From the IMG/VR virus record IMGVR_UViG_3300043436_003813, positions 6,355 to 70,354 of that record: a DNA stretch of 64,000 bases; one strand, given 5' to 3'. The translations under genes were made by a program, and so were the position numbers. Positions 1,261-44,928 of this stretch are shown in pieces. Each line of letters begins with the position of its first letter. Position 1 is the first letter of the stretch. This DNA is from a virus. The notes beneath the pieces were generated by a model, which had not been told where the DNA came from, ran no database searches, and was given only the letters and a program-made list of their open reading frames with translations.

Positions 1261-1462
1261 GGGGATTCTCCGCTCTTACGTGGGGTTCACTCGGTCGTTG
1301 CCCTAGTTCACGGCAGAGGCAGACATGAAAAGCCCCAAGGCGGGTGAGAAAACCTTGGGGGCTCAACAATCTGGATGGACCATCGCGAGCTAACTCGACA
1401 GTCCCACCCATCTAAGGTGGAGATAAGACCACTCGCCTTTTGTCCGCGTCAACAGGTTTCGC

Positions 1463-1921
1463 TCAGTTGTATGGAGTAAATTCACGGGGCATGGCCTCCG
1501 TTGCTCCGGCTGGAAGTTGCCCCACGTTCGTGAATCGCCAGTTGATCTTAGACATCTGCGAGTTATACTCGGCAGCCAAGCTGTTGTAGCTGGCCTTCAC
1601 TCCAAGCATCTCCGTTTGCCACAAACCCACCTGCTCAAAGACATGGCGGGGCATGTCTCGCCCAACATAGCGCCCCTCCGTATTTGCAAGGCGCTGCTCG
1701 TAGAGGGCGATGTCAGCACGCTTCTTATCGAGTTGGGCGCGGGCATCCTTGAACCACTCGTAGCGGCGAAGCAGGGTGCGCGGGTCAATCTGCTCCTCGG
1801 CGGTGGACACCACCTTGCCTGCGTAGTCGGCGGCTTTCCCGCCGACATAGAGCATGGTGCAGCCAACGGGAAGTGCCACGCATCCAGCCAAGACCAAGGC
1901 GAAAACGGCGGCGGTCTTCAC
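1463..1921 (-). CDS. Membrane-anchored or lipoprotein coiled-coil protein (YEWF...YN family seen in phages)
   Basis: Hydrophobic N-terminus with LAGC; RRYEWFKD...SYNSLAAEYNS. Confidence 0.7.
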   Translation of the reverse strand: MKTAAVFALVLAGCVALPVGCTMLYVGGKAADYAGKVVSTAEEQIDPRTLLRRYEWFKDARAQLDKKRADIALYEQRLANTEGRYVGRDMPRHVFEQVGLWQTEMLGVKASYNSLAAEYNSQMSKINWRFTNVGQLPAGATEAMPREFTPYN

Positions 1922-2466
1922 TGAAGCACCTCCAAATTGAGCTTCACGGAACGAACGGGAAGCGGATTATCGGAGACATGGATGATGGCGCTGCTGCCAA
2001 CGAACTGCTGATGATAACGGCCTTGCACGTCCCACCAATAGAGGTATTCGGAGGAATCGCCGTAAGTGCCGTCATCTTGGAGGACTTCGGATGTAAGGCG
2101 GGTAGCGCCGCCGATGTCCACGTCAAAGCCCCTGTCGGAACCTCCGGGGGTATAACCCGCCCAAACTGACTTGGGCGTCAGGCGCTTGCCGCCACTAGTC
2201 ACCTTGCCCCGAACCGTGGAATAGATGAGGACATCACCGGACAGTGGGCTAATGACGTAGAGATGCTTGATGGAACCAGGAAGATTGTCCGTCTTGAGTC
2301 GATCACGGATGTTTCGCTGCTCAATGGTTAGCCCATCGGTGCCGGTTTGGACGACGGTGCTTGCCTTGGTGACGCCGGAGGCAGATTGGGGAGCGACGGG
2401 CTGCGGAAGATCGCAACCAGTGAGGAGTAACGAGGTGGCCAGGGCCGGGAATAGGAAGTGTTTCAT
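1918..2466 (-). CDS. Phage lipoprotein
   Basis: Signal peptide with lipobox LLTGC; KVTS...LTP and DDGTYG motifs; ATGA coupling to the next gene. Confidence 0.75.
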   Translation of the reverse strand: MKHFLFPALATSLLLTGCDLPQPVAPQSASGVTKASTVVQTGTDGLTIEQRNIRDRLKTDNLPGSIKHLYVISPLSGDVLIYSTVRGKVTSGGKRLTPKSVWAGYTPGGSDRGFDVDIGGATRLTSEVLQDDGTYGDSSEYLYWWDVQGRYHQQFVGSSAIIHVSDNPLPVRSVKLNLEVLQ

Positions 2467-2470
2467 GGGT

Positions 2471-2644
2471 TCAGGCGAAGAGTTGGGATGGTGCCGAGAC
2501 TTGAACGCTGCCGACCTTCTTAAGTGATTGGCCGGAGCGGATTTGCTGCCACACAGGAATTAACATAGCCAACAAGAGGCCGATAATTACGATGACGATC
2601 ATGGCTTCAAGAAGCGTGAAGCCCTTTGGTTTATTTTGTTTCAT
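2471..2644 (-). CDS. 57-aa type IV prepilin-like protein (N-terminal cleavage/methylation domain only); not in the ORF track
   Basis: MKQNKPKG|FTLLEAMIVIVIIGLLLAMLIPVWQQIRSG...: class III signal peptide with G-1, F+1, E+5 and a hydrophobic helix. Confidence 0.85.
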   Translation of the reverse strand: MKQNKPKGFTLLEAMIVIVIIGLLLAMLIPVWQQIRSGQSLKKVGSVQVSAPSQLFA

Positions 2645-2666
2645 GGTTTTGTTTTGGACGGAAAGA

Positions 2667-2696
2667 AGTGTAGCAGAAACGGGCGGTGATGCGCAA
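2667..2696 (-). promoter_or_regulatory. Promoter for the pilin/lipoprotein operon
   Basis: TTGCGC-N18 (containing CGTTTC)-TACACT. Confidence 0.55.
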
Positions 2697-2783
2697 GGAA
2701 ATCATGCCGCGTCCCCTGTCGATATGTTTGGCTCCGTGGATGGAGCGGCGATCAGGTCGGGGTGGGCTTAATGCTACGTGTGC

Positions 2784-3197
2784 CTAGGCGAACGGCTCAG
2801 TCCTGCCATATCTAGCGAGGTTATTGAGCGCCGCAATCTCCCGTGCTTGCCCGTCGGCTACGGCACAGGCTTCCTTGTGGAGGCGCTGGGATTCTGCTAG
2901 CTCCTTAGCCTGCTTAAACACGAGAGCAGCCAGCCGCTCCGTTTCTCTGTGGGATTCGGCTAACTGCTCCTCTAGGAGAGAGGCCCTTTCGTTGGCCTCA
3001 TTCATCTCTTGTTGGTGCAGTAACACCATAGCCTTGAACATCTCGTTGCACGCTGTAAATTTGTGCTCTAATTCTCGGGCGTGGTCCCGCATGTCGATAG
3101 CGATGCAAGACAACTCGGGATGGTCGGTGCTGTCCGTCTGGTGCTTAGCCTCTTCCCAAGCAGCGTTCGTCAGTGGTGTGGGCATGGTGTCGTTCAT
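2784..3197 (-). CDS. Hypothetical coiled-coil protein
   Basis: 137-aa ORF, heptad-rich, aaccATG start. Confidence 0.7.
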   Translation of the reverse strand: MNDTMPTPLTNAAWEEAKHQTDSTDHPELSCIAIDMRDHARELEHKFTACNEMFKAMVLLHQQEMNEANERASLLEEQLAESHRETERLAALVFKQAKELAESQRLHKEACAVADGQAREIAALNNLARYGRTEPFA

Positions 3198-3199
3198 GG

Positions 3200-3408
3200 T
3201 TACGGTTCGATGATGGATTGAAAGCCCGCGATCATGGAGGTGATGTATGGATACCGGAGTTCTGGTTTCACCGCGTTTACGGGGTATCCCTGCGCCTCAA
3301 GTAGGGCATAGTTCCCTGCCTCAAGTCTTTTATGGCCGCGATGGCGCGCTCGGATGTGAGGTCGCCGGATGCCACTAGTTCATCCGCGACGGGGGTTGGT
3401 GTGTTCAT
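3200..3408 (-). pseudogene. Small gene with a 1-nt frameshift in an A run (about 3328-3332)
   Basis: MNTPTPVADEL...AAIK continues in the -1 frame as RLEAGNYALLEAQGYPV...IIEP*, stopping 2 nt before the next ATG; span is 209 nt. Confidence 0.5.
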
Positions 3409-3915: not shown

Positions 3916-4404
3916 CTACGCCTCCAAGAGTTTCGCTGCGATGCCGTATGCCCGCACTTGCCCCGCCCGCTCGCGGCAGATGCCATACTTCTCCTGGATG
4001 AAGGCATTGTCCTTCCCGTCCTTCATGTCCCCAAGCATCTTCACGATCCGGGGCATGTCTCGCCCGAGCCTGCGGTGGCCGATTTGCTTGGGTTGATAGG
4101 GAAAGCGCGGCCCCTTCGGCTTCTCGCCAAGCTGGAGCAGCCGGCGATAGACGTGCTCCGGGCTCTTAAGCCCCATTTCCTTGGCAATAGAGACGCAATC
4201 GTGGCCCTCCCTATGCAGGGATACCATTCGCTGCTTCTTCGCCCCGGAAATGGAAATGTAGGGCACGTTATGGCGGCGCAAGATGGACTCCGCATACGGG
4301 ACCCGCATCCCCACTTCACTTGCTAGCTCGCTTATGAGCCTGACTTCTTGCTTGGCTAGGGCGATGAGAGAAAGGCGGCGTTTGTGTGCGGAAGAATGTT
4401 CCAT
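3916..4404 (-). CDS. Multi-HTH DNA-binding protein
   Basis: ISELASEVGMRVPYAESIL, SIAKEMGLKSPEHVYRRL and IQEKYGICRERAGQV segments. Confidence 0.6.
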   Translation of the reverse strand: MEHSSAHKRRLSLIALAKQEVRLISELASEVGMRVPYAESILRRHNVPYISISGAKKQRMVSLHREGHDCVSIAKEMGLKSPEHVYRRLLQLGEKPKGPRFPYQPKQIGHRRLGRDMPRIVKMLGDMKDGKDNAFIQEKYGICRERAGQVRAYGIAAKLLEA

Positions 4405-10191: not shown

Positions 10192-10220
10192 AAGCTACGG
10201 GAAACGGACGGGGGAATCAA
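10192..10220 (-). promoter_or_regulatory. Promoter heading the recombination operon
   Basis: TTGATT-N17 (containing CGTTTC)-TAGCTT. Confidence 0.5.
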
Positions 10221-13200
10221 GGAGATTCTGGCTGGTTCTGAAGCACCTTCAGGAGCGCGGCCTCAAACACCTCATCGTTAATGACATCCTTGCCGTATTG
10301 TGACATCTTCCCGACGTATTCCATGATGGCCCCCATGTCCTCGGTGTAGAGCTTGGCAAACTGACGGGCGTAGTATTCGGCCTTTGCGTTGTTGTCTCGC
10401 AAGTTACCCACCATTCGGGCCTCAGAACTCGTGCCCATAGCAGCAGACTCAAGCCGGTTCTCTAGCCGCTTGGCTGCACGTTCGCTACCAGCAACCACGG
10501 ACATGGCCGCTTCGGCTCGGCGTGCTAATTCGGGGTCGTTGGACGGGGCAAGCATCTCGCTCAACACCATCTCCACGGCGGCATTCTCGTCGGCTGTGAT
10601 GTCGGCAGAGACGCGCTCGGACTCCTTGGCCTCATCCCGCTTTTCGCCAAGCTCAACGTAGTTTGGCCGACCAGCCACCGCCCCAAGAATCGGAATCTTA
10701 TCCTGAATACTACCCTCTCGGTAGTTCGGGGCATTGAGCAATCGAGCGCCACCGAAGAAGGACTCGGTAATGTAGCGTAGGGATTGCGGGCTACGCAGCG
10801 CATTGGGGGCTGATTCAGGAAGCGCCCCCGCCAACTGCCGATAAAACTCAGGGTCCTTGTTCGGATCAAACTGCTTCCCAGGGGACGCCTCTGGGTTGGC
10901 CGAGACCACTGGGCGGTTATCGTAAAGGCTGGTGTTGGTCATCAACTCCGGGATGAGGCGAACACCCGGCTGCATAGAGGAAATCAAGGACCGTCCGCGT
11001 TCCATCAATGTCTCGCCCTCAATGTTGATGGGGCTGTGCCGCCAGAGAAAGTCCTCGGCAACACTCGCCCACCCCGGGTTCTCGGAAGAAGCCTGCTTCA
11101 CCGTAGCCTCCGCCATGTCACGCGCCAGCATGGCGTGCGGGCCTTGAATGCGGACACGGAAATACTCGCGGATTGGACGGCCCTCCTCCTTGCTAAATGT
11201 CTTGTATGGCACCATCTGGATGCCAAGGTAGTCTGCTGTTTCTTGCGGCATAGCCGGCATAATCTTCCGTGATCCGTCCGGGAAGGTGTATTCCGACAGG
11301 GGGATGGCTATGCCATTTGTCTTCCATCGATCGCTCAGTTCCTCGTAGTCCTCTCGGTTTTCAGGCAGATAGTTCAGCGCCATCACACCGGCGGTGACTA
11401 GCCCGAACTGGCCAAGCACGGAGGCAGCGGACAGCGCAGACTTCACTCGTTGCTTATCGTATGGCTTGCCAGCCACCATGTTGGCGAAGTCAGCCAGTGG
11501 CATTGCTCTGCGCGCATCCGTTTCAATCGAGCGGATGGCCGCATTTGCGAAGGTGTAGAACATGCTTAGGCTATTCAAGTCCGCTGCCTTCTTTGCGAAG
11601 TTGGGGGAGCCGTAGTAGTTGGCTACGTCATAGGACGCCCGCGCGATGGCCGCACGAAGGTCATCCGGGTTTACATTCGGGTCGGTCATCGCCTTCTTGA
11701 GCGAGATGTATTTAGTGACTTGGGTAGGCCCGTTGTTCGTTACGACAGGAACCTTTTCTTGCATGAGCGCCTGCTGCCAACCGACTAGCTTGGTAGTCTG
11801 CTCAAGTGCGGAACTTCCGCGAACCGGAACGTCAATGAAGCTAGACAGCACGCGCGAGGGAGAGAACACCTCTCCAATAGCCCCAGAAAGCGGGGCTCGC
11901 CGCTCAAACGTCTTCGGGTTTACGTCCATGAAGAAGCTGCCTGGCATGGCGTTGTTCTTAATGGCGGAGTCAACCAGTCCATCCATCTGGTCCGCGAGGT
12001 TCAGACGGGTGGCGCTAAAAAGGGCGCGGGGATAATGCCACGCAAGGGCGAGCGCGGGGGCCAACTTAACTCCCACCGTTGGCTTAATCACCCGGTAGTT
12101 GCTCATGGTCTGCGCGCGTATCGGGTCAAGCATCGTGAACTGACCTGCGGCGAACGTGGGGCTGAGTGCCGCTTGGCCCAAGCGGGCCACGGCATTCGTC
12201 CAACGGAGGGGGGTCAGCACACCAGCGGACCTGTTGGCGCTTCCGTTTATGGTGAGTGCAACGTCATTCGGCACCTCAACGAACATCTTCTCTCCGTCGT
12301 CAAAGTAACTGACGACGCTATGACCGGGGCGCGGGGAGTGGTCGGACTTAACGCGGCGGAAATACACGCCATTTACATCGTCATCCACCAGCTTCCCAAA
12401 CGTATCCCGGAGGAACTTATTGGCCTCCATCCGCTGTGTTGAGTTGTAAATGCGTTGGCGCGCAGTTTCAAAGATGTCGGCCAACTTGAAGTCATCACGG
12501 TTGATGCCCTTGCGCGCCTTCACGACTGCCTCGGTCCCGCCAAAGCTACCATATCCAGCAGGTCCAACCGTAGGCTCCTCGCGCAGGACATTGAATGGAG
12601 CATAGAAGTCGTTCTTAGCCTTGATGTCGGCCACTTGCTGTGCCGACAACATACCAGCGTCCTGCATCTGGCGCAGATTCCAGTCCATGACACCACTGAA
12701 GTTCTGGACGGAATCCTCGATGTTCTTTGCGGAATCAGGGCCAAGGTCGCGGAGTATCTTCGCCCGCATTTCCTGAACCGCTAGCGGGGCCTCTTGCTCC
12801 GTAATGCTGCCAGTTCGGAACAGATCGTATTCCTCCTTGATGTCGTTCTCTGCCTGCTTGAGCTTCTTTTGCGCGGCCCCTAGCTTCTTGGACAGCGCGA
12901 GCGTGTCGTCCCGCTTTTGCGCTGCCGCATCGTAATCCAACTTAGCTTGCTGAGCTTGAGGAAGTTTCGCCGGGTCTTTCGCTGCGGCGGTCTTTGCTTT
13001 AGCAAGCGCCAGCTTTGCGTTCTCGGCGTCACGAATAACCTTCTTTAGGGACTTGTTCGCTTGGTCGGCGGCAATGAACTCGGCTTGCGCGGCTTGCAGG
13101 GAGGCATCCAGCTCCGCCTGATTGGCCACACGATTCTTGGCGTAGTCTTCAATACGGAGGGCGCGCAAAAGCATTTCCGAATAGGCGTGCTCCTTGCTTG

Positions 13201-16200
13201 ATAGAGCATCGCGGACATTGGTTAGATTGGCCGTGGCTCGCGCGGCCTTCATGTGGCTGGCCTTGGCGCGGTCAAATTCAGCCGCCACATCGGCCACGCT
13301 GCCCTCCTCAATCGCTAACCCCTGCCCCTTTAGAATGTCACGCTGGATAGAGCGGAACACATCGGACGCCGCAATGTTCTTTCCCCGGAACGCGCGGATG
13401 CCATCCGTCAGCTTCTTCCACGGACCAACCGAACTAGCGACGTTGCCCTCGGTGGCGGCTAGCTTCTTGATGAGTGGACCATCCGCTGGCTTAACCGGCA
13501 TGGATAGACGGGAGCGGGCAATAGATGAGGCGGCGGACCCAGCAATCGTGCCGCCAACCACACCTCCAAGCGTGGCCATAATGCGGCGGGCCTCGAACTC
13601 CTCCTCAGTTTCACCCTCCTGTTTTTCAACACTAAAGTATCCCGTAGCACCGCCGGCAACGGAGCCGCCCACCATAGGGATGGCTGCCGTGTTGATGAAG
13701 CCCGCCTCTGCTGCACCCGGCTTGCCCATCAAGCGTATCCGCTCTGCATCCTCGGCGGCGGAGATGGTGCCACGGGCAAACTTGTTGTCCAAGAAGCGGA
13801 GGCGGTCCCTGTCTTTAATGGAAAGGGCGGGTTTAATGGCCGGTGAAGATGGCGTTTCCGTTGAGATTGCGGGCGTTTCTCCAGCCGGGGCTATGTCGGG
13901 TAGGGGCTGTGCCGGGATGGGCTCAGGAAGCGGGCTAGACGGCACGCGGCGGGTCATGCCACGGGCGCGGGCAAGCTCGGCTATCTTGGCGCGGCGGTCT
14001 GCCGTGATGGGCTGGCGGGCTGGTGCGGCGGGCTGCTCCTTGAAAAACAGAGGGCGATACTTCGCCATTAGTTCTTCCCTGCGTGCCTTCTGCTTTGCCG
14101 TCAACTTATACGGGGCATAGCCAGTCTCGGGACCCTGACGCGCTGCCGACTTGTAAATCAAGTCCTCAAGTTCGTCCACCTCCTTGTTTTGGGCAGCAGT
14201 CAACAGATTCCTGCCCTCCTCTATACTGCCTACACCAACGATCTCAGGGATGGGCTGGCGGGCTACTTGCGCTTGCGGGGCTTCTTGGACGGCCTCTTGT
14301 AGCCGGACTTGCTGCGGCTCAGGGAGAGTTTGGACGCTTGTTGGGGTTGGCTCTGGTATGGCATTGGAAAGAGGGGGGAGTTCAGGGGTAGCAGCGGGGG
14401 TGATGCCCACGGCTTCGGGGGTGAGTTCGTCTAGCGAAGTGAGGCGGGTGGGCTGTGGACGGGCGGGCGTCTTTGGCTCAAGGTTCTTCACCGGAGCGAA
14501 GCGGGCCAACGCGCCCTCGTAGATAAGCTGGTATTCCTGCGGGTTGGTAGTGCCGGCTAGTGCGCGGGCAACCTGACGAGCCTCTTTAACCGGCACACCC
14601 TTCTCGCGTAGCGCCTCAAACGAATCCGTCTGACGCTTATTGAACGCCTCGGTCTCGGCTTGGGGCGTAGCTCGGCGTTCTTGTGTGGTCGGGCGAACCT
14701 CTGCCACGGGGGGCGGTGTGCTCTCTTCGATGCGCGTGGTGAGATTTTGGATAGCCCCGTCCACGTCATCACCGAACTCTCTGCGAACGGCCAAGACCCG
14801 ACGCCGGGCACGCTCCGTGATGTCGGAATTTACCTCCACGCCAATACGGTCGGCCGCACGCTTTGCCTCAGCCAGCGAAACATCATCCACCAACTGCTGA
14901 AGGATACGCTCCTTGGCGGCGGGGCTACGGTTCTCGGCTGCGGTGACAGCACGCGAGGCAATCAGGTTATCAACCGGCGACGGCTCAGCGGCGGGCGGCA
15001 CAATCTCACGCAGGCCAGCATCAGCTTGCCCCGTGGAAAGCTGGGTGAGCGTAGCCTGCGCATTCGCCCCCTTAGATTCCTTGATGGCGTTGGCCGCTTG
15101 GGCTGCTTGATTAGCGGCTTTCCCCTTGGGGGCGGCGGGCTTCGGTGCTTGCCTTGCTACCCCTAGCCCACCACGCAAGCCCCCGCCAAGGACGCCTGCT
15201 CCAGCTACGGTCAGGGCATCGGCGGGCGTAAGTGACACGTCCTCACCACGGGAAAGTTCGTCTAGCTTCTGTGCGCCAACCATGCCCACACCCTGTAGCC
15301 CACCCTCAATCGTTCCAGCGAGCGCCTCTTGCCCCACGCGCCGAAGAAGACCTGACGCCGGGCGAGCCGCCCCAAATGTAATCAAGTTAAGGGGGCCGGA
15401 TGCAGCTAGTTCAACTGGAGAGAACCGTTCATTTATTGCCTGCTCCGTAACGCCAGCCGCGTAACCACCAGTAAGTAGCGCGGGTGTGCCAGTAAGGCCA
15501 AGCGCAGGCGGGGCGGCAACGGCGGCACCAAGAGATGCCAAAACGCTAGGAGCAGCCATTGCAACCTGCCCCGGAATTGTCTGCGCCCTATCAGTTGAAC
15601 GAAGACCAGCGACACCGGCCCCAGTTGACTCCGTTTGGATAAGGGCCTGTTCCGCAATTTGGGCCATGCGTGCGCGAACCCCGGCCAACTCACTAGTGTT
15701 TCGCTCCACGTCCGCCCTTGATTGCAGCGCGGCTGGGAGGGCGAGGCTCTGTGACAAAATCCGCTCGCTCTGCTGTAGCTGCGCGTATTCCCGGGCTGCT
15801 CCACCCAAAATCTCCGGGAGTCTGTTGGCCGCGATGCTTTCAAACTGAGCCCCCGCAAGCTCCATCAGTCCCGGGGACGAGTCTCGCCGCTCAATAAACG
15901 ATTCTCCGGCCAATTGCGCAACTCGTCCTGCTGCATCAGGCGCAAGTCCGGCTGACATTGCTTTCCGTGCAGCGGACTGCTGCACTTGCCCGACGACATC
16001 ACCCCTTTGGCGTGCGAGATCAAGACGCGCTGCGCGATTCTGTTCATCGGCAATGGCCGACAAACTCTCCGCTGCCTGAAGTCCGGCGGCTCGGCTTGCT
16101 GCATCGTTGACCTGCCCCGCATTACGCCTTGCGCGAGCGAGCAACCCCTCGTCGGCAATAACAGGCAGCCCCCCCGTAGGCGACGGGGCAAACTTCGGCC

Positions 16201-16318
16201 CCATCAATGCATCGATCTCTGCCTTGCTTGGCGGGCGCTCCCCCTCGAACTCAACTACGGAACCATCGGGAAGCTCAAACTCGTAAATGTTGGCCATGCC
16301 CGTATACTCACTGTCCAT
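10217..16318 (-). CDS. Giant internal virion / DNA-ejection protein with an LPD38-like C-terminal region
   Basis: 2033 aa, Ala/Gly-rich, last gene of the virion operon; YEFELPDGSVVEFEG N-terminus; NTSLYDNRPVV...SPQSLRYITESFFGG. Confidence 0.7.
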   Translation of the reverse strand: MDSEYTGMANIYEFELPDGSVVEFEGERPPSKAEIDALMGPKFAPSPTGGLPVIADEGLLARARRNAGQVNDAASRAAGLQAAESLSAIADEQNRAARLDLARQRGDVVGQVQQSAARKAMSAGLAPDAAGRVAQLAGESFIERRDSSPGLMELAGAQFESIAANRLPEILGGAAREYAQLQQSERILSQSLALPAALQSRADVERNTSELAGVRARMAQIAEQALIQTESTGAGVAGLRSTDRAQTIPGQVAMAAPSVLASLGAAVAAPPALGLTGTPALLTGGYAAGVTEQAINERFSPVELAASGPLNLITFGAARPASGLLRRVGQEALAGTIEGGLQGVGMVGAQKLDELSRGEDVSLTPADALTVAGAGVLGGGLRGGLGVARQAPKPAAPKGKAANQAAQAANAIKESKGANAQATLTQLSTGQADAGLREIVPPAAEPSPVDNLIASRAVTAAENRSPAAKERILQQLVDDVSLAEAKRAADRIGVEVNSDITERARRRVLAVRREFGDDVDGAIQNLTTRIEESTPPPVAEVRPTTQERRATPQAETEAFNKRQTDSFEALREKGVPVKEARQVARALAGTTNPQEYQLIYEGALARFAPVKNLEPKTPARPQPTRLTSLDELTPEAVGITPAATPELPPLSNAIPEPTPTSVQTLPEPQQVRLQEAVQEAPQAQVARQPIPEIVGVGSIEEGRNLLTAAQNKEVDELEDLIYKSAARQGPETGYAPYKLTAKQKARREELMAKYRPLFFKEQPAAPARQPITADRRAKIAELARARGMTRRVPSSPLPEPIPAQPLPDIAPAGETPAISTETPSSPAIKPALSIKDRDRLRFLDNKFARGTISAAEDAERIRLMGKPGAAEAGFINTAAIPMVGGSVAGGATGYFSVEKQEGETEEEFEARRIMATLGGVVGGTIAGSAASSIARSRLSMPVKPADGPLIKKLAATEGNVASSVGPWKKLTDGIRAFRGKNIAASDVFRSIQRDILKGQGLAIEEGSVADVAAEFDRAKASHMKAARATANLTNVRDALSSKEHAYSEMLLRALRIEDYAKNRVANQAELDASLQAAQAEFIAADQANKSLKKVIRDAENAKLALAKAKTAAAKDPAKLPQAQQAKLDYDAAAQKRDDTLALSKKLGAAQKKLKQAENDIKEEYDLFRTGSITEQEAPLAVQEMRAKILRDLGPDSAKNIEDSVQNFSGVMDWNLRQMQDAGMLSAQQVADIKAKNDFYAPFNVLREEPTVGPAGYGSFGGTEAVVKARKGINRDDFKLADIFETARQRIYNSTQRMEANKFLRDTFGKLVDDDVNGVYFRRVKSDHSPRPGHSVVSYFDDGEKMFVEVPNDVALTINGSANRSAGVLTPLRWTNAVARLGQAALSPTFAAGQFTMLDPIRAQTMSNYRVIKPTVGVKLAPALALAWHYPRALFSATRLNLADQMDGLVDSAIKNNAMPGSFFMDVNPKTFERRAPLSGAIGEVFSPSRVLSSFIDVPVRGSSALEQTTKLVGWQQALMQEKVPVVTNNGPTQVTKYISLKKAMTDPNVNPDDLRAAIARASYDVANYYGSPNFAKKAADLNSLSMFYTFANAAIRSIETDARRAMPLADFANMVAGKPYDKQRVKSALSAASVLGQFGLVTAGVMALNYLPENREDYEELSDRWKTNGIAIPLSEYTFPDGSRKIMPAMPQETADYLGIQMVPYKTFSKEEGRPIREYFRVRIQGPHAMLARDMAEATVKQASSENPGWASVAEDFLWRHSPINIEGETLMERGRSLISSMQPGVRLIPELMTNTSLYDNRPVVSANPEASPGKQFDPNKDPEFYRQLAGALPESAPNALRSPQSLRYITESFFGGARLLNAPNYREGSIQDKIPILGAVAGRPNYVELGEKRDEAKESERVSADITADENAAVEMVLSEMLAPSNDPELARRAEAAMSVVAGSERAAKRLENRLESAAMGTSSEARMVGNLRDNNAKAEYYARQFAKLYTEDMGAIMEYVGKMSQYGKDVINDEVFEAALLKVLQNQPESP

Positions 16319-17254: not shown

Positions 17255-18220
17255 TTAAAGTCCGAATGATACGGTTGATCCACCAAACCCACTCCCGCCA
17301 AACGCCCCGTTAAACTGAGACGACGCGGGTGCGGATGGAGCCGGAGCAGGCATGGGGCTTGGAGATGGCTGCGCTTGTGGCCTTGACATATAAGCACCAA
17401 GGGCGGCACCGCCAAGTTGCCCACCGAGCGTAAGTAGGCTGTTACCAAAGGCAGCTTGGTTGCTGGCCTTGTTCGCTGCCGCAGCTTGCGCGGCGTTCTG
17501 GTTGCCGACCATAAGATTCACCACGCTATCCGGCGTAAGCCCGGACTCGGGGCGTGCGATGCTCTGCCCGAACTGAGCAATAGCCAGACGGCGGCTAAGC
17601 TCAGCCTGCCCGAGGTCATTCACCGAGCCAGCCAAACCCTGCTGTGCCTGAAGTTGGGCCAAGAGGTTCTGGTCATACGCCTGCCCAAACTGCTGCGCTT
17701 GGTTCAACCGCTGCTGCTGCACTGCCATCGACGCCAGCCCAAGGTCACGCGCGCTGACATCCCGACCGAGGCCAAGGTTGCCCGTCGTGCCAGCCGTGCG
17801 AGAAAGGGCAGCACGGGTGACGGCGTTTTGCGTCTCGCGGTCAAGCTGTCCACCAAGAGCCAACTCGGCCTGCGCGCGGTCATACGCGGCTTGCGATAGG
17901 GCAGACGGAGCGAAGCCTTGGCGGTAGCGGTCCATCAACGACGCCTGCAACTCTGCCGTATTCGTCGGGCGTCCAGCCTCGTCCAATAGTGCTTGCGTGC
18001 TTTGCTGGCGAAGCCGGAAGGTCTCTGGACTATACTGCTGCTCCAGACGAATGGCGTCTTGGATGTTCTTCTCTGCGTAGCGGCGCGCGGCAGCGTCCGC
18101 CCCGGAAATACTCACCGTGCTCGCCTTGCCGCCCTTGCCTGCCTTGGACGCAGAGTAGATGCCCGCTCCGGCTGAAGCCACCGCCGCTCCCGCCATGATT
18201 GTTCCAGTTGCAACGGCCAT
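17255..18220 (-). CDS. Internal virion / DNA pilot protein
   Basis: MAVATGTIMAGAAVASAGAGIYSASKAG glycine-zipper N-terminus; Q/A-rich helical body. Confidence 0.7.
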   Translation of the reverse strand: MAVATGTIMAGAAVASAGAGIYSASKAGKGGKASTVSISGADAAARRYAEKNIQDAIRLEQQYSPETFRLRQQSTQALLDEAGRPTNTAELQASLMDRYRQGFAPSALSQAAYDRAQAELALGGQLDRETQNAVTRAALSRTAGTTGNLGLGRDVSARDLGLASMAVQQQRLNQAQQFGQAYDQNLLAQLQAQQGLAGSVNDLGQAELSRRLAIAQFGQSIARPESGLTPDSVVNLMVGNQNAAQAAAANKASNQAAFGNSLLTLGGQLGGAALGAYMSRPQAQPSPSPMPAPAPSAPASSQFNGAFGGSGFGGSTVSFGL

Positions 18221-18660
18221 TATTTTATCTCCTTGAAGTAGTGGGTTTCAGTCGGGACGTATCCCATTCGCTCGTATAGCGCGGAAAGTTTGTCTGCCTT
18301 CAGGGCGGAGAGATGCACCATGCCGATGCGCTTGCATCCCTGTTCGCGCGCCAACTTCTCGTAAGCCAAGAGTAGGCGCACTCCATTGCCGCGATGCTCT
18401 TCCTTCACATACCAAAATGCTTCCGTAGCCACCAATTCTCCGTCGTTGATGTCCGGCCACATGAAGAAGCCAAGGATGCCCACCAACTTGCCCTCACTCC
18501 ATTGACCAAGGATGCCGCCGGAACCGTTGGCCGTAGCACGCTTCCACGTCCCTACAAACTTGGCGGGGACAAACGAGCCCGGCAACTTGCCCTCGGCCCA
18601 AAACAGCGAGCCGAACTCAACCGCAAGCGGAACCTGCTCAACTGTGAGTTGGGTAATCAT
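18220..18660 (-). CDS. GNAT acetyltransferase
   Basis: ATEAFWYVKEEHRGNG..LL motif A; LYERMGY motif B. Confidence 0.85.
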   Translation of the reverse strand: MITQLTVEQVPLAVEFGSLFWAEGKLPGSFVPAKFVGTWKRATANGSGGILGQWSEGKLVGILGFFMWPDINDGELVATEAFWYVKEEHRGNGVRLLLAYEKLAREQGCKRIGMVHLSALKADKLSALYERMGYVPTETHYFKEIK

Positions 18661-19253
18661 CGCTTGTTGAAGAAGCCCACCCAGATGAGCCGGCCATCCG
18701 AGGCGTCATTGCCCCATGCGTCACGGGGGAACCGGGCATGGAACATCGCAGTCTCATAGACCACGAGACGATTGAACTTCTGCGGCAAGAGGCCGATCAT
18801 GTCCCACTTGCTATCATCGTTTCCGTCCGCGTTCAGATTGTCCACAAAGGTCTGTTCGTCATAGCCCTTGGCGTCCATCCACTCCTTCGTTACCATGCGG
18901 TCAATGCCTAGCTTCTTGTGGCGATAGAGGCCGGTTCCGGCCACGGTGCCAGCAGGGGGCTCCGACAGATACCAGACACATGCGTGCGTGGCGCAATCCC
19001 CGTCCGCATGGATGTGCGTAGTGGGCTTTTCCTCCTTAGTGCCGAGCCGGAAGTATTGGATGCGAAGGTCAATCGGGCACCCAATCGCAGCGCCAACATA
19101 TCCATCTATCAACTCAGGCAACCATTCCGTGGACATGCCCGTATAACTATGACCAAGGAACTCCTTCGTGCCGTAGTTGAGGTGCATGGCTGCACGACGC
19201 ACCGCCTCTGGGGCAGGGTAGAAGTCGTCAACGATGAGGGTGGTGGTTCGCAT
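18657..19253 (-). CDS. 2OG-Fe(II) oxygenase (DUF6445-like)
   Basis: IVDDFYPAP, HIHAD (HxD), GTGLYRH, KFNRLVVY...FHAR, RLIWVGFF. Confidence 0.8.
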   Translation of the reverse strand: MRTTTLIVDDFYPAPEAVRRAAMHLNYGTKEFLGHSYTGMSTEWLPELIDGYVGAAIGCPIDLRIQYFRLGTKEEKPTTHIHADGDCATHACVWYLSEPPAGTVAGTGLYRHKKLGIDRMVTKEWMDAKGYDEQTFVDNLNADGNDDSKWDMIGLLPQKFNRLVVYETAMFHARFPRDAWGNDASDGRLIWVGFFNKR

Positions 19254-20173
19254 TATTGATAGCGGATGATTTTGTTTACTGTCAGAGAGGGCTGGAGATT
19301 AGCATGCGCCGCGCCCGTGCCAGACGTAGCGGTGGTGCCGGCGTCGGGTTCGCCCGTGGCCTTGGCCAGCGCGTAGGACCGGTCGCCAACGTCGCGACCA
19401 GTTGCGAGATATTCAGTGGAAAGCAGAAGTGGGCCAGCAGCAGACACCTCTTGCTTGGCCAGCAAATGCCCGTGGGGGCCGTTCTGCGTGGCGGTGAGGG
19501 ACACCCCCTCGGTTCCTCGCTTCGAGCCCAAGGACCATGCCGTAGCGTCCGTAGCGTCGCCCGTGCCCGATCCCACGGCCACGCGGCCACGGAAGTCCGG
19601 TAGATTGAATGTCGTGCTGCCGTCGCCCACGCCGTAGGTGGTGCCGATGACGGCAAAGAGGGCGGCGTATTGGCCACGAAGCACAGCCGCGCCGTTACAA
19701 ATCAGGAAGTCTTGGGGGGCCGTGTTCGTCGGCCAGTCGTGCATCACGCCCACCGGGGCCAGGTTGGGCTTGTTCGTGATGTTGGCGTAGTCAGTGGGGA
19801 AGGCCACCCACTGAGAGGCTTGCCACTTGCGGACATCAAGAGGGGTGCCGTCTGCCGCGATGCGAAACCAGATGTCGTAGTCCGCGCTGGACGGGGTGAC
19901 ATCCGTAACGATGTAGCGCAGGCTCTTTTGGGCTAGCTTTTGCGGCTGGTAGTTGCCGGTATCGTAGTCAAAGTAATACCACGTGCTCTCCGTCGTCAGG
20001 AAGTGGGGGCCGGTATCAGAAGAGGGGAGGACCGCGCCGGACGTGAACAGGCTATACGACTGGCTTGTTGAGGCAGAGAGACGTTGCGCGATGGCATCTG
20101 CGATGCCTTGTGGGGTATAACTCTGGTCCAGCGGCAGAGCGCCAACTGTAAACGTGATGGGGAGGTCTGGCAT
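19253..20173 (-). CDS. Short tail fibre with tail-collar domain
   Basis: PVGVMHDWP...FLICNG..VLRGQYAALFAVIGTTYG.GDGSTTFNLPDFRGR; HANLQP..TVNKIIRY. Confidence 0.85.
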   Translation of the reverse strand: MPDLPITFTVGALPLDQSYTPQGIADAIAQRLSASTSQSYSLFTSGAVLPSSDTGPHFLTTESTWYYFDYDTGNYQPQKLAQKSLRYIVTDVTPSSADYDIWFRIAADGTPLDVRKWQASQWVAFPTDYANITNKPNLAPVGVMHDWPTNTAPQDFLICNGAAVLRGQYAALFAVIGTTYGVGDGSTTFNLPDFRGRVAVGSGTGDATDATAWSLGSKRGTEGVSLTATQNGPHGHLLAKQEVSAAGPLLLSTEYLATGRDVGDRSYALAKATGEPDAGTTATSGTGAAHANLQPSLTVNKIIRYQ

Positions 20174-25809: not shown

Positions 25810-27723
25810 CTAGGCCGATACCTCGATGGTCCAGTATTGCGCGGGCGGGTCGATGGCACCGCCGGTCGTATTGAGCACGCGCAGCTCAACGTTGTCGGTC
25901 GTGAGCACCGGCGGCAGCACGACGAGGCCGGACGGAAGGGCGCTGGTCGGGGTGGCCCGAACACTCATGCCGACAGAAACCAGCGGCACGGTGACGTTCA
26001 CGCTGCCCTCAGCGCCCGCCGCGATGCTGCCGAAATCTACGCTCAGGCGCCGGTAGCGGATGCCGTTGAGCACGCGGATCAATTGGTCTCGGATCATCTG
26101 GTGGCCGAGGGTGGAGAAATGCACGCCGTCGCCCTGCAACGTGGTCGAGGGGCTAGCAATGTCGGAGAATAAATAATAGGCGTCCGCGTAATCCACGCCA
26201 GCGGTTCGCGCGGCAGCGATGCCGGCGTTTGAGTAGGCGGTGTTCTTAGTGCTATTCACGCTCGAGCAATAAGGGACGCCAAGAATCACCACGCGCCGGC
26301 CCGTCGCGAGCACAGCGGTCGCAACGTTGCCGATGTTTGTTTGATAGTTTGTGATGACAGTCGCGTTTCCGTTCGTGGTCGCGTCAGTCAAAATCATATC
26401 GTTAGTCCCGGTTGCGAGAATAACGACACTGGCACTCGGTCGATTTACCGCATTAACTTGGATATCCACCAAGCGCGGAATAATTGCCACCGTATCGCTA
26501 GTTCGTCGTCCGGGCATGGAGCCGTTCACCTCACGGAGCCCAAGCCGGCGGCTCAACAACACCGACCAGCGAGTAGCGTTCGCCCCTAGCCCGAATCCGT
26601 TTGAGTCGCCTACTACATTTAGCGCGGCAGAGCAGGGCTGCGGACGGACCGCGTTGACGAAATCCATCGCGGCGCGATTCAGAGAAAGCGCCTGAGCGTC
26701 GGTAAGGGCAGAGCCGACGCTGAAAAAATGCAGGGTGCCGGTCGTGGTGTATGGATTGTTGTCCGGGGCGTGCCCACGGAGCAGTAGGATTTCCGCGTTG
26801 AGATTTACAGAGGTAGGCGTCGAAGACCCGCTAGATTGAATCGACCCATCGGCGCACGCGACCAATCCGCCCACCCGCCCAGACCACGTGATCGCCCGCA
26901 CGGTGGTATCCGCAGCGCGACCGTAGGTATTGCCGTCATATCGGGTGAGGCCATAGGAATCGCCCGGCGACCACACGGGTTTCGAGTCTGCACCAGCGGG
27001 CGTGGACCCGATGATGTTTGCGACGTTGGAGAAACCGCCGGCAGCAACGCAGCAAAAAGAGAGGTTGCTGCTAGAAAGACCGAGCGCGGTAGGTATCACT
27101 CCAGTGGATACGAACTGAGTTCCGGTGCCGACTAGGCCACCCTCTTGGGTGTAGTTCCCGGGGACAAAATTGGTGCCGGCGGTCGTCACCCCATCCGTGT
27201 TGATCGCCTGCGCCAACGCGACCGCAAGGCTACTGCCGCAAAACGGGAGGATGAGCTTTTGAAGCGCGAACCATCCATCACGCTTTCCGGTCACAACAAG
27301 GCGGTCATAAGCCTCCAAGACAAAGGCGTCGATGGATGATCCTGCCGCAATCACGCGCGCCTCGTAATCGAGCGTCTCGACCTGAAAGCCGCGCACCTGA
27401 GCGGCGACATGCCGCCCCGTGGAGCCGAGCGTCGCCACGCCGTTCGCGGCGCCTTTCTCGGAGGCGGGGATGGCGCCGATGGCGGAGAGCGCAGTGGCTT
27501 GATCCTCGGACGCAAGAACCTCAAGACCGACTGTCCCGGTCGTTAGGTCTGTTCCTCCCTCTTGGGCTAGCTGATTGTTGTTTGCCGCGACTCGCGCAGC
27601 AATCGCATCAACCGGATCAGAGGCGACGTAGGCAGCCGCAGTAGCACCAGCTTCAACCTGATCGGCAAGGGTGAGGCGAAGGTTTTCCGCCGGGGATTTG
27701 AGGGGGTTATAGACGTAGGACAT
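25810..27723 (-). CDS. Tail spike/fibre with lectin-like domain and SGNH/GDSL esterase
   Basis: KGAANGVATL fibre motif; VVGDSNG (block I), GTNDM (block III), DGVHFS (block V). Confidence 0.8.
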   Translation of the reverse strand: MSYVYNPLKSPAENLRLTLADQVEAGATAAAYVASDPVDAIAARVAANNNQLAQEGGTDLTTGTVGLEVLASEDQATALSAIGAIPASEKGAANGVATLGSTGRHVAAQVRGFQVETLDYEARVIAAGSSIDAFVLEAYDRLVVTGKRDGWFALQKLILPFCGSSLAVALAQAINTDGVTTAGTNFVPGNYTQEGGLVGTGTQFVSTGVIPTALGLSSSNLSFCCVAAGGFSNVANIIGSTPAGADSKPVWSPGDSYGLTRYDGNTYGRAADTTVRAITWSGRVGGLVACADGSIQSSGSSTPTSVNLNAEILLLRGHAPDNNPYTTTGTLHFFSVGSALTDAQALSLNRAAMDFVNAVRPQPCSAALNVVGDSNGFGLGANATRWSVLLSRRLGLREVNGSMPGRRTSDTVAIIPRLVDIQVNAVNRPSASVVILATGTNDMILTDATTNGNATVITNYQTNIGNVATAVLATGRRVVILGVPYCSSVNSTKNTAYSNAGIAAARTAGVDYADAYYLFSDIASPSTTLQGDGVHFSTLGHQMIRDQLIRVLNGIRYRRLSVDFGSIAAGAEGSVNVTVPLVSVGMSVRATPTSALPSGLVVLPPVLTTDNVELRVLNTTGGAIDPPAQYWTIEVSA

Positions 27724-34176: not shown

Positions 34177-35088
34177 TCAGGCGTTTTGGCTGGCGACGTA
34201 GGCTTGCCAAGTCTTTTTGAGACCGTCCTCAATGCTTATCTTAGGTTCCCAATCGGTAATGGATTTCAGTCGCTTTGTGCAGAAGGTCTTTTTTTCGATT
34301 CCGACTGGGGCATCATGCCTCCACACCACAACGGGCGGGGTGCCGGCGACGGAGAACAGGGTGGCCACAAGCTCGGCTATGGTAGTGCCTTGGCCCGGAC
34401 CGATGTTCACAAGGTCATGGAGTGTCTTGCTCGCAAGGACAGCGTGGATGGCGGAGGCGGCATCGTCCGCGTGCAAAAACTCACGGAGTTGATTCCCGCT
34501 TCCCCAAACAACGAATGGCTCACCCGTGGCCTTGCTTCGGTAGAGTTTGTTGATGAGTGCCGGGATGACGTGGGCGCGGTCTAGGCCATAGCTGTCGTTG
34601 TGCTCGGCATATAGGTTGCATGGAGCAACGGTCGTCCAGTTGAGCCCGTGCTTCTCCTTGTATGCCTTTACTAGTCGCCACCCCGCAATCTTTGCGATGG
34701 CGTAGGCTTCCACATCAGGCTCCAGTGGCCCATGCATCACCCACTGTTCACTTACTGGAACCGGAGCCGTCTTCGGATACATACAGGATGTTCCGACGAA
34801 GATGAGGTTTTGCACCCCATGCTCAAAGGCTGCCGCGAAGACTGCGTTCTGTATCTTGAGGTTTTCGTGCAGGAAGCCAATGGGGTCGGCCTTGTTGGCC
34901 GCGATGCCCCCTACCTTGGCAGCGCAATGAATGACGGCCTCCGGCCGAAGTTCGGCCATTGCGTAACGGGCGTTCGCCAGTGAATCGAGTCGGAGGTTGG
35001 TGGTGACTACCTCGTGCCCGGTGTTCTCGTAGAAGCGAACGCAGGCTGATCCGAGAAGTCCGCGATGGCCAGTAATAAAAATTCGCAT
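34177..35088 (-). CDS. fcl: GDP-L-fucose synthase
   Basis: ITGHRGLLGS Rossmann motif, HCAAKVGGIAAN, GTSCMYPK, YAIAK (YxxxK), PCNLY, HVIPALI, VWGSGNQLREFLHADD. Confidence 0.9.
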   Translation of the reverse strand: MRIFITGHRGLLGSACVRFYENTGHEVVTTNLRLDSLANARYAMAELRPEAVIHCAAKVGGIAANKADPIGFLHENLKIQNAVFAAAFEHGVQNLIFVGTSCMYPKTAPVPVSEQWVMHGPLEPDVEAYAIAKIAGWRLVKAYKEKHGLNWTTVAPCNLYAEHNDSYGLDRAHVIPALINKLYRSKATGEPFVVWGSGNQLREFLHADDAASAIHAVLASKTLHDLVNIGPGQGTTIAELVATLFSVAGTPPVVVWRHDAPVGIEKKTFCTKRLKSITDWEPKISIEDGLKKTWQAYVASQNA

Positions 35089-44851: not shown

Positions 44852-44928
44852 TGGCGTCTCCGGCTGGACTTGAACCAGCAGCCACCGACTTAGAATGACG
44901 GTGCTCTGTCCGATTGAGCTACGAAGAC
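44852..44928 (-). tRNA. tRNA-Arg(UCU)
   Basis: GTCTTCG-TA-GCTC AATCGGACA GAGC-A-CCGTC ATTCTAA GTCGG-TGGCT-GCTGG TTCAAGT CCAGC-CGGAGAC-G-CCA; A20 Arg identity element. Confidence 0.88.

What the first reader, a model, noticed from the sequence alone, without database searches (positions are those of the whole stretch)
2471..2644. Unannotated phage-encoded mini-pilin (prepilin peptidase substrate lacking the globular head)
Seen: a 57-aa ORF below the track cutoff, MKQNKPKG|FTLLEAMIVIVIIGLLLAMLIPVWQQIRSGQSLKK..., is the first gene behind its own promoter. Established: G|FTLxE plus a hydrophobic helix is the class III signal processed by prepilin peptidase, and this helix drives pilus/pseudopilus assembly. 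From recall, the IIGLL.AM.IP..Q..R pattern resembles Opitutae pilin-like proteins. Inference: a dominant-negative pilin that poisons or caps type IV pili or T2SS, or titrates the peptidase, giving superinfection exclusion or receptor masking. This would differ from known PilB/PilC-binding phage inhibitors.
Basis: partly seen in the sequence, partly recalled or inferred. Interest (0 to 1): 0.8.

Follow-up and report, generated by a model that had tools for sequence, protein, structure and literature searches.

The report
Phage-encoded headless type IV pilin
A freshwater phage carries a tiny gene for just the stem helix of a bacterial pilus subunit, probably to tamper with its host's pili or secretion fibres; similar truncated pilins have already been noted in other phages, and none has been tested.

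Summary
The ORF is real. It lies at 2644..2471 on the minus strand and encodes 57 aa with a canonical prepilin signal (MKQNKPKG|FTLLE). PF07963 and TIGR02532 both score above their curated cut-offs. Codon usage is gene-like, and identical copies occur in contigs of four further lake or freshwater runs.

It aligns end to end with 116-144 aa pilins of Verrucomicrobiota (44-53% identity) and stops where their alpha-1 helix ends. It is therefore an alpha-1-only ("headless") pilin. It keeps G-1, F1, E5, G14 and P22.

The window is part of a 70-kb uncultured virus record. That record holds no prepilin peptidase or assembly ATPase match, so the protein must use host machinery.

The gene heads a tightly coupled three-gene unit. 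The other two genes are a lipoprotein and a membrane-anchored helical protein. That pair recurs in 13 other viral contigs, none of which has a pilin motif.

The "own promoter" was not found, and no RNA data exist.

The dominant-negative or superinfection-exclusion reading is plausible but untested. It is also not new: Sztanko et al. (Cell Rep 2026) describe about 60-residue truncated PilA in Pseudomonas phages with the same hypothesis. I found 44-59 aa examples in Pseudomonas and Delftia phages.

Verdict: a new member of a known, functionally untested kind. Interest is moderate.

The parts
2471..2644 (-). Headless pilin gene, 57 aa including the stop codon. Mature form predicted at 49 aa.
   Evidence: ORF list and sequence. 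PF07963 and TIGR02532 above their cut-offs. Gene-like codon score. Zero differences in contigs of 4 other runs.
2621..2644 (-). Class III leader peptide MKQNKPKG (residues 1-8). The predicted prepilin-peptidase cut lies after Gly8, before Phe9.
   Evidence: Read from the sequence. The position of the match in PF07963/TIGR02532. Cleavage itself is inferred, not shown.
2474..2620 (-). Mature alpha-1 segment, FTLLEAMIVIVIIGLLLAMLIPVW... to ...QLFA. F1, E5, G14 and P22 (mature numbering) are present. It ends where the alpha-1 helix of the full pilins ends.
   Evidence: Alignments A3 and A4 with six Verrucomicrobiota pilins of 116-144 aa, 44-53% identity, aligned end to end.
2645..2783 (-). 139-nt gap upstream of the gene. 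A possible promoter region, not demonstrated.
   Evidence: No sigma-70-like site on this strand. No recurring word. No structure, z 0.18.
1918..2466 (-). Lipoprotein A, 182 aa, lipobox LLTGC. It starts 4 nt after the pilin stop codon.
   Evidence: Relatives at 46-61% identity in 13 viral contigs. The atlas lists it as a viral lipoprotein family with no Pfam. No Pfam or PHROG hit.
1463..1921 (-). Protein B, 152 aa. GTG start overlapping A's stop (GTGA), with GGAGG upstream. Hydrophobic N-terminus, then a helical hairpin and a conserved C-terminal tail.
   Evidence: Alignment A1. AF2 model pLDDT 86.7. No fold match at E<=1e-3. Always adjacent to A in the 13 viral contigs.

Best explanation
The gene encodes an alpha-1-only ('headless') type IV pilin. 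The phage most likely captured it from the small major-pilin family of a Verrucomicrobiota-type freshwater host.

Shown: it has a bona fide prepilin signal. It ends at the alpha-1 / head boundary. It is encoded by a virus record in which no prepilin peptidase or assembly ATPase match was found. It is translationally coupled to two conserved phage envelope proteins.

Inferred: the pre-protein inserts into the inner membrane, and the host A24 (PilD-type) peptidase cuts it after Gly8. The 49-aa helix then joins the membrane pool of pilin subunits. Because it keeps the polymerisation and recognition features (F1, E5, G14, P22) but has no head, it interferes with host type IV filaments (pili and/or type II secretion pseudopili). 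Three routes are possible:
- It co-assembles as a defective or receptor-less subunit.
- It blocks the assembly platform.
- It mimics a full pilin pool and switches off pilin expression, as PilA does through PilS in Pseudomonas.

The likely pay-off is exclusion of pilus-dependent competitors or shut-down of host surface functions during infection. Expression would be together with the lipoprotein A / protein B envelope pair.
For: Family membership: PF07963 36.5 bits against 21.2; TIGR02532 26.9 bits against 16.3.

End-to-end alignment with 116-144 aa Verrucomicrobiota pilins at 44-53% identity, ending at QLFA against QYFL/QYYL.

The nearest solved sequences are naturally short 'Geopilin domain 1' pilins: 9egp_A at E 4.8e-5 and 7tgg_A at 1.1e-4.

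Gene-like codon usage. A 4-nt gap to A and a GTGA overlap between A and B.

The record has no Peptidase_A24 and no T2SSE match. Among the Verrucomicrobiota genomes with the best-scoring matches, 5 of 5 tested have one A24 peptidase, and a partly overlapping set of five carries 8-14 T2SSE-family matches each.

Parallel cases exist in isolated phages: 59 aa in Pseudomonas Nankokuvirus Epa16 and PS24, 44 aa in Delftia PhiW-14, and 82 aa in Xanthomonas BUDD. PHROGs holds small pilin-like families with profiles of 59, 67 and 72 positions.

Literature:
- Truncated 60-residue PilA in six virulent Pseudomonas phages, with the same hypothesis; phage FimU proven to enter the pilus and block phages (passages read).
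- Virus-encoded pilins that hijack host machinery in an archaeon (abstract).
- PilA-PilS pilin autoregulation (passages).

The A-B pair sits among replication and recombination genes. None of the 92 neighbour ORFs scanned had a lysis-enzyme or holin family. This fits an early or middle envelope function.
Against: There is no functional, RNA or protein evidence.

No full-length relative turned up in any search:
- Exhaustive phmmer over 1.84 billion representatives found only itself at E<=1e-10; all other hits cover residues about 1-44.
- The word-index searches found nothing else.
- The viral, genome and metagenome pattern scans gave only N-terminal matches.

Conservation among related phages therefore could not be tested. 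The nearest primase relative is only 33% identical. The copies in other runs are identical, so selection cannot be measured.

None of the 13 viral records with the A-B pair has an N_methyl match, so the pair does not need it.

The host is not identified. Whether the target would be pili or a secretion pseudopilus cannot be told: GspG scores 32.8 bits against a cut-off of 88.85, and only the generic domain model passes.

Short N_methyl fragments that look like decayed copies occur in a Verrucomicrobia genome, so shortness alone does not prove function.
Confidence: 0.45

Rival explanations
1. The mini-pilin is a dedicated partner of the downstream envelope proteins. Either lipoprotein A serves as a detached head (a split pilin like Geobacter PilA-N/PilA-C), or the pilin helix anchors or positions the A-B complex in the membrane.
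For: Tight translational coupling of the three genes. The best PDB sequence matches are Geobacter-type 'Geopilin domain 1' short pilins. In print these are discussed together with a second protein, PilA-C, in one filament (passages). A is predicted to be beta-rich, as pilin heads are.
Against: The A-B pair occurs in 13 other viral contigs, and none of those records has an N_methyl match. A profile of A finds no geopilin or pilin chain in the PDB: of 7 weak hits, all are beta-propeller-blade 'cell surface protein' or designed chains. A has its own lipoprotein signal.
Confidence: 0.2
2. It is a functionless remnant: the 5' part of a host pilin gene picked up by illegitimate recombination in front of the A-B module and not yet lost.
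For: It is an orphan. No full-length relative exists anywhere searched. Truncated N_methyl fragments occur in a Verrucomicrobia genome that holds 139 or more N_methyl matches. No RNA evidence exists.
Against: All signal residues are intact, although identity to the nearest cellular pilins is only 44-53%. This points to long retention under constraint. Codon usage is gene-like. The stop falls at the alpha-1 boundary, and only 4 nt separate it from the next start. Headless pilins have arisen separately in phages of Pseudomonas and Delftia. The sequence is unchanged in contigs of 4 runs from 4 studies.
Confidence: 0.15
3. The three genes form a lysis unit: a small single-pass membrane protein acting as holin or antiholin, plus a spanin-like pair (membrane-anchored coiled coil B and lipoprotein A).
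For: The architecture is a small TM protein, a lipoprotein, and an N-terminally anchored helical hairpin. No endolysin, holin or spanin was recognised anywhere else in the 79%-complete record. There is a weak Phage_holin_8 hit (E 0.071, 13.7 bits against a 26.4 cut-off).
Against: The N-terminus is a strong prepilin signal, not a holin. In 13 other contigs the pair lies next to SSB, ERF, exonuclease, ligase, PNKP and ParB genes, and none of the 92 neighbour ORFs has a lysis-enzyme or holin family. In 5 of 14 cases B carries a lipobox-like signal instead of a membrane anchor. The pair is 38-61% identical across phages of very different G+C content, which is unlike fast-evolving spanins (established knowledge).
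Confidence: 0.07

Closest known systems
[quoted passage not shown] Source: Sztanko et al., Cell Rep 2026, doi 10.1016/j.celrep.2025.116759; passages read, Table S3 not seen. Examples found here: Nankokuvirus Epa16 QIQ65104.1 and PS24 YP_009205990.1, both 59 aa.
   Same: Phage-encoded. Class III signal plus alpha-1 only, about 60 aa. Sits among small early-type ORFs. The same proposed roles (co-assembly without receptor sites, or block of assembly), which are untested in both cases.
   Different: Only 31% identical, and the C-terminal halves do not align. The present protein is closer to Verrucomicrobiota cellular pilins (up to 53%), so it is most likely an independent capture (inference). It has a different host phylum and habitat, and it heads a three-gene envelope unit.
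Phage FimU (P-FimU) minor pilins of Pseudomonas prophages (same paper)
   Same: A phage-encoded type IV pilus component that uses host machinery and protects against other pilus-binding phages (abstract).
   Different: P-FimU is a full-length minor pilin that replaces the host one without harming pilus function. The present protein has no head domain. P-FimU is experimentally proven; this one is not.
Geobacter PilA-N ('Geopilin domain 1', PDB 7tgg, 9egp)
   Same: A naturally short pilin consisting of little more than alpha-1. It is the best solved-structure sequence match (E 4.8e-5 and 1.1e-4 over residues 4-36).
   Different: It is a cellular protein. In print it is discussed together with a second protein, PilA-C. 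No geopilin-like chain appears among the PDB matches of downstream protein A. The mature length here is 49 aa; the roughly 61 aa of mature PilA-N is recalled.
Small phage inhibitors of type IV pili: Tip (D3112) acting on PilB, and the filamentous-phage protein of Schmidt et al. 2022. Both seen only as cited in PMC12426801. Aqs1 and the PilC target are recalled.
   Same: The proposed outcome is the same: loss or change of pili, giving superinfection exclusion.
   Different: Those are non-pilin proteins that bind the motor or platform. This one is itself a pilin-type substrate.
SNJ2 provirus pilins PilA1/PilA2 of Natrinema (Cell Rep 2025, PMC12426801; abstract and passages read)
   Same: Virus-encoded type IV pilins that depend on the host secretion and assembly machinery.
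   Different: Archaeal, full pilins that build functional filaments. They are constructive rather than inhibitory.

Membership tests
Prepilin-type N-terminal cleavage/methylation domain (PF07963 / TIGR02532) | Score above the curated cut-off | tested here: met
   36.5 bits against 21.2, and 26.9 bits against 16.3.
Prepilin-type N-terminal cleavage/methylation domain (PF07963 / TIGR02532) | Short basic leader ending in Gly(-1), then Phe(+1), Glu(+5) and about 20 hydrophobic residues | tested here: met
   MKQNKPKG|FTLLEAMIVIVIIGLLLAMLIPVW, read.
Prepilin-type N-terminal cleavage/methylation domain (PF07963 / TIGR02532) | Cleavage and N-methylation by an A24 prepilin peptidase | not testable with these tools
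   No peptidase match in the phage record. One is present in each of the 5 Verrucomicrobiota genomes tested.
Full type IV pilin / pseudopilin (alpha-1 plus globular head) | C-terminal alpha-beta head domain after alpha-1 | tested here: not met
   The protein ends where alpha-1 of the aligned 116-144 aa pilins ends. The next gene starts 4 nt later with its own lipoprotein signal.
GspG major pseudopilin (TIGR01710) | Equivalog score at or above 88.85 bits | tested here: not met
   32.8 bits, N-terminal 44 positions only. The nearest cellular relatives also fail, at 35.8-46.7 bits.
Phage truncated-PilA family of Pseudomonas phages | Phage-encoded, about 60 aa, alpha-1 only | tested here: met
   57 aa in a virus record. 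Compare the 59-aa Epa16 and PS24 proteins.
Phage truncated-PilA family of Pseudomonas phages | Sequence relatedness beyond the generic pilin N-terminus (common descent) | tested here: not met
   31% identity to Epa16 with no alignment after about residue 30. It shares the kind, not the lineage.
Geobacter-type split pilin (PilA-N + PilA-C) | Adjacent gene encoding the detached head domain | tested here: not met
   The profile of downstream protein A finds no geopilin or pilin chain in the PDB. A occurs without any pilin motif in 13 other viral records. The structure model of A was too poor to compare folds (pLDDT 56.5).
Holin (Phage_holin_8, PF16931) | Score above the gathering cut-off | tested here: not met
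   13.7 bits against 26.4, E 0.071.
Known anti-phage defence proteins (PADLOC-DB) | Match to any model | tested here: not met
   None of the 5 proteins of the cluster and its flanks matched at E<=0.01.

The most novel reading that the evidence does not exclude
Headless pilins are a convergent phage weapon across bacterial phyla. On this reading, an alpha-1-only decoy is processed by the host prepilin peptidase and then poisons or silences type IV filament machines. In this phage it has been recruited independently from a Verrucomicrobiota pilin and wired to a widespread, uncharacterised phage lipoprotein/helical-protein pair, forming a three-part envelope take-over or superinfection-exclusion cassette. 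The host group carries about a hundred or more prepilin-type proteins per genome, so the effect could reach well beyond pili.
Probability: 0.3. Interest if true: 0.6.

Novelty: new member of a known kind. Interest (0 to 1): 0.35.

Why it matters
If the peptide really interferes with type IV filaments, it would be a minimal, genetically encoded inhibitor (49 aa) of pili or type II secretion that works as a substrate mimic rather than by binding the motor.

It would also extend the idea raised for Pseudomonas phages to an uncultured freshwater phage of a PVC-group host. That would suggest repeated, independent capture of the pilin stem by phages.

It also flags a conserved two-gene phage envelope module of unknown function, present in at least 13 other viral contigs, that deserves study in its own right.

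On present evidence this is an annotation-level finding with a testable hypothesis that is already in print. It is not a new principle.

Tried and rejected
RNA evidence: no RNA holder was listed for window 1300-3400, so transcription, transcript start and the promoter claim could not be tested.

Binding of the mini-pilin to A and/or B: complex prediction gave no verdict. The queue was full twice before that.

Structure of lipoprotein A: pLDDT 56.5, too poor for fold search.

Fold of B: the model is good (pLDDT 86.7), but Foldseek against PDB and BFVD gave nothing at E<=1e-3. The profile against PDB sequences gave nothing below E 0.1. LemA scored below its cut-off in 2 of 14 homologues (E 0.0034 and 0.034).

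Full-length relatives:
- Word-index search, near lengths: only itself among 2 candidates.
- Word-index search, longer lengths: none of 25 candidates.
- Viral contigs with the protein: 37 pattern matches, 0 confirmed.
- Viral contigs with profile A4: 5 loci, carrying pilin-like ORFs of 94 to about 158 aa, none headless.

Close relatives of the phage: the primase/helicase query found only 2 loci at 33% identity.

Promoter: the sigma-70 scan, recurrent words and RNA folding were all negative.

Lifestyle and lysis genes: no integrase, endolysin or holin family among the ORFs scanned (9; 38; 44; 51).

Defence models: none.

Selection from natural variants: the contigs of 4 runs carry no difference in the ORF.

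Closed or unavailable:
It may list the same phage proteins I found.
- Kilmury & Burrows 2016 is not held. Its detail on which pilin residues matter is recalled only.

The first genome-scan taxonomy (7 of 12 titles of planctomycete type) was set aside. The scan was pattern-limited and truncated. The even-sample comparison replaced it.

Full report
**What is there.** It matches Pfam N_methyl (PF07963) at 36.5 bits against a 21.2 gathering score, and NCBIfam TIGR02532 at 26.9 bits against 16.3. A six-frame search of the whole record finds this as the only N_methyl match. The leader is MKQNKPKG and is followed by FTLLE. In mature numbering F1, E5, G14 and P22 are all present, as read. The role of these residues in processing and filament packing is established knowledge of type IV pilins.

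**Is it a gene?**
- Its codon score is 0.236 per codon. That lies inside the range of 23 long genes of this phage (0.177-0.609) and above 93% of the 290 ORFs of 45-75 aa in all six frames. The two ORFs overlapping it on the other strand score negative.
- It lacks a Shine-Dalgarno-like motif, but so do 24 of the 29 genes examined. This is therefore not evidence against translation.
- Contigs from four further lake or freshwater runs of four studies cover the ORF with no difference. This rules out an assembly artefact but gives no variation from which to measure selection.
- No RNA run holds the stretch (see Tried and rejected).
- The public protein collection already holds this exact protein with a precomputed PF07963 hit, on 4 contigs.

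**Setting.** The window is bases 6355-70354 of a 70,354-bp linear IMG/VR virus record, estimated 79% complete. It is clearly a tailed phage. It has a primase/helicase, a DnaD-like loader, an exonuclease, a Holliday-junction resolvase, a tail-collar fibre, an SGNH-esterase fibre and an internal-virion-protein-like giant. No integrase, endolysin or holin family was recognised in the ORFs scanned.

The mini-pilin follows a 139-nt gap and heads a compact unit. Four nucleotides after its stop begins lipoprotein A (182 aa, lipobox LLTGC). A's stop overlaps the GTG start of protein B (152 aa). The 'own promoter' was not found. There is no sigma-70-like site on that strand, no recurring word and no structure.

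**The two downstream genes.** A has relatives at 46-61% identity in 13 viral contigs. In every one of them a B homologue lies directly beside it: B then A in nine contigs, and A then B in four contigs and in this window. A fourteenth hit (L015, 27 residues inside an 865-aa protein) was dropped as spurious.
- B models confidently (pLDDT 86.7) as a long N-terminal helix followed by a helical hairpin. No fold or family match was found.
- A modelled poorly (pLDDT 56.5). The atlas calls it a viral lipoprotein family without a Pfam.
- I scanned 92 of the 136 ORFs of 100 aa or more listed in those loci. A, B and most antisense or overlapping frames were left out. The Pfam hits were ParB, Gp157, RNase_T, two ssDNA-binding families, DUF2800/PD-(D/E)XK, ERF, DNA ligase, PNKP and NT5C. 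None was a lysis-enzyme or holin family.
- None of the 13 records has an N_methyl match.

So A-B is a widespread early- or middle-region envelope module of unknown function. The mini-pilin is an addition specific to this phage.

**Relatives of the mini-pilin.** No full-length relative was found.
- The exhaustive phmmer search of 1.84 billion representatives gave 280 hits at E<=1e-3 but only itself at E<=1e-10. All the others cover residues about 1-44.
- The short hits I inspected mostly look like fragments or frameshifted translations.
- In even samples of 151 genomes per phylum, Verrucomicrobiota gave 137 genomes with a hit at E<=1e-3. By my count from the table, 20 of these were at E<=1e-7, with a best of 3.2e-11. 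Planctomycetota gave 3 at E<=1e-7, with a best of 5.8e-8. In genomes with many candidates, only 43 were scored.
- The best Verrucomicrobiota matches are 116-144 aa pilins, some in tandem. The mini-pilin aligns with them over its whole length (44-53% identity) and ends at QLFA opposite their QYFL/QYYL, just before the variable part begins. It is thus the complete alpha-1 helix and nothing else.
- NCBIfam cannot say whether these cellular pilins belong to pili or to type II secretion.
- The genomes tested carry one A24 peptidase each (5 of 5) and 8-14 T2SSE-family matches each.
- PVC-group genomes carry 39 to 139 or more N_methyl matches.
- The phage record has neither a peptidase nor an ATPase match.

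**Is the kind known?** Yes.
- tblastn against 50,697 phage records found 92 with a pilin-like N-terminus at E<=1, including 35 Pseudomonas and 34 Synechococcus phages.
- Examples include 59-aa ORFs in Nankokuvirus Epa16 and PS24 (the latter annotated 'Prokaryotic N-terminal methylation motif'), a 44-aa ORF in Delftia PhiW-14, an 82-aa ORF in Xanthomonas BUDD, and a 100-aa 'pilin' in cyanophage S-CAM7.
- PHROGs holds pilin-like families with profiles of 59, 67 and 72 positions.
- Sztanko et al. [quoted passage not shown] They propose either incorporation without phage-binding sites or inhibition of assembly (sections read). Their Table S3 could not be opened. They prove the principle only for full-length phage FimU (abstract).
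- Full-text searches for 'phage-encoded pilin', 'mini-pilin', 'headless pilin', 'truncated PilA' and related terms found no experimental study of such a phage protein.

The present protein is 31% identical to the Epa16 protein, and only in the generic N-terminus. It therefore shares the kind but probably not the origin.

**Mechanism.** The best reading is a substrate-mimicking interferer with host type IV filaments, as set out under Best explanation. The steps from membrane insertion onward are inferred.

A third route beside co-assembly and blocking is worth testing. In Pseudomonas, PilA in the inner membrane represses its own gene by contacting the sensor kinase PilS (passages in PMC6058289). 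The primary paper is not held. A stable headless pilin could counterfeit a full pool.

Titration of the peptidase seems less likely in a host with dozens to more than a hundred natural substrates.

The rivals are a partner role for A-B, a decaying remnant, and a lysis unit. They are weighed in their own sections, and none is excluded.

**Verdict.** The identity is firmly supported. The mechanism is plausible, unproven and already proposed for analogous proteins. This is a new member of a known kind, from an unusual host group and in an interesting three-gene context.

Noticed in passing
window 1463-2466 (-); L002-L014 around position 4000: Lipoprotein A and helical protein B form a strictly adjacent, well-conserved pair (A 46-61% identity, B 30-50%) in 13 other viral contigs of very different G+C content, in either gene order. 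B's N-terminus switches between a membrane anchor and a lipobox-like signal. Neither protein has a Pfam, PHROG or PADLOC family. The neighbours are replication and recombination genes.
   Followed up: partly
window 2829-2858: In run X2 the contig covering the three-gene unit ends at 2858, and two different contigs continue from 2829. One is window-like with 5 differences; the other is unlike the window. This suggests phage variants that share the unit but differ upstream, which would mark a mosaic boundary.
   Followed up: no
window 10217-16318 (-): A 2033-aa ORF with no Pfam or PHROG match at the thresholds used. It sits next to the tail-fibre and internal-virion-protein-like genes.
   Followed up: no
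window 25810-27723 (-) and 19253-20173 (-): A fibre-like protein with an SGNH/GDSL esterase domain, and a tail-collar fibre. These hint that the phage's own receptor is a surface glycan rather than a pilus (inference).
   Followed up: no
window 44852-44928 (-): A tRNA-Arg(TCT) gene.
   Followed up: no
whole window: Only 5 of the 29 gene starts examined have a Shine-Dalgarno-like motif, and A-rich or C-rich leaders are common. Translation initiation in this phage and its host seems largely SD-independent.
   Followed up: partly
L048 and L051 (Verrucomicrobia genome G014): Short open frames with an N_methyl motif occur here: 62 aa without a start codon, directly upstream of a full-length paralogue, and about 54 aa counted from its MKTKVK start. 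They look like decayed pilin-gene copies. Truncated pilin fragments therefore also occur in cellular genomes with very large prepilin families.
   Followed up: partly
window 34177-35088 (-), 18220-18660 (-); L001 4719-5432 (+): The phage carries an NAD-dependent sugar epimerase, a GNAT acetyltransferase and an N6/N4 DNA methylase.
   Followed up: no
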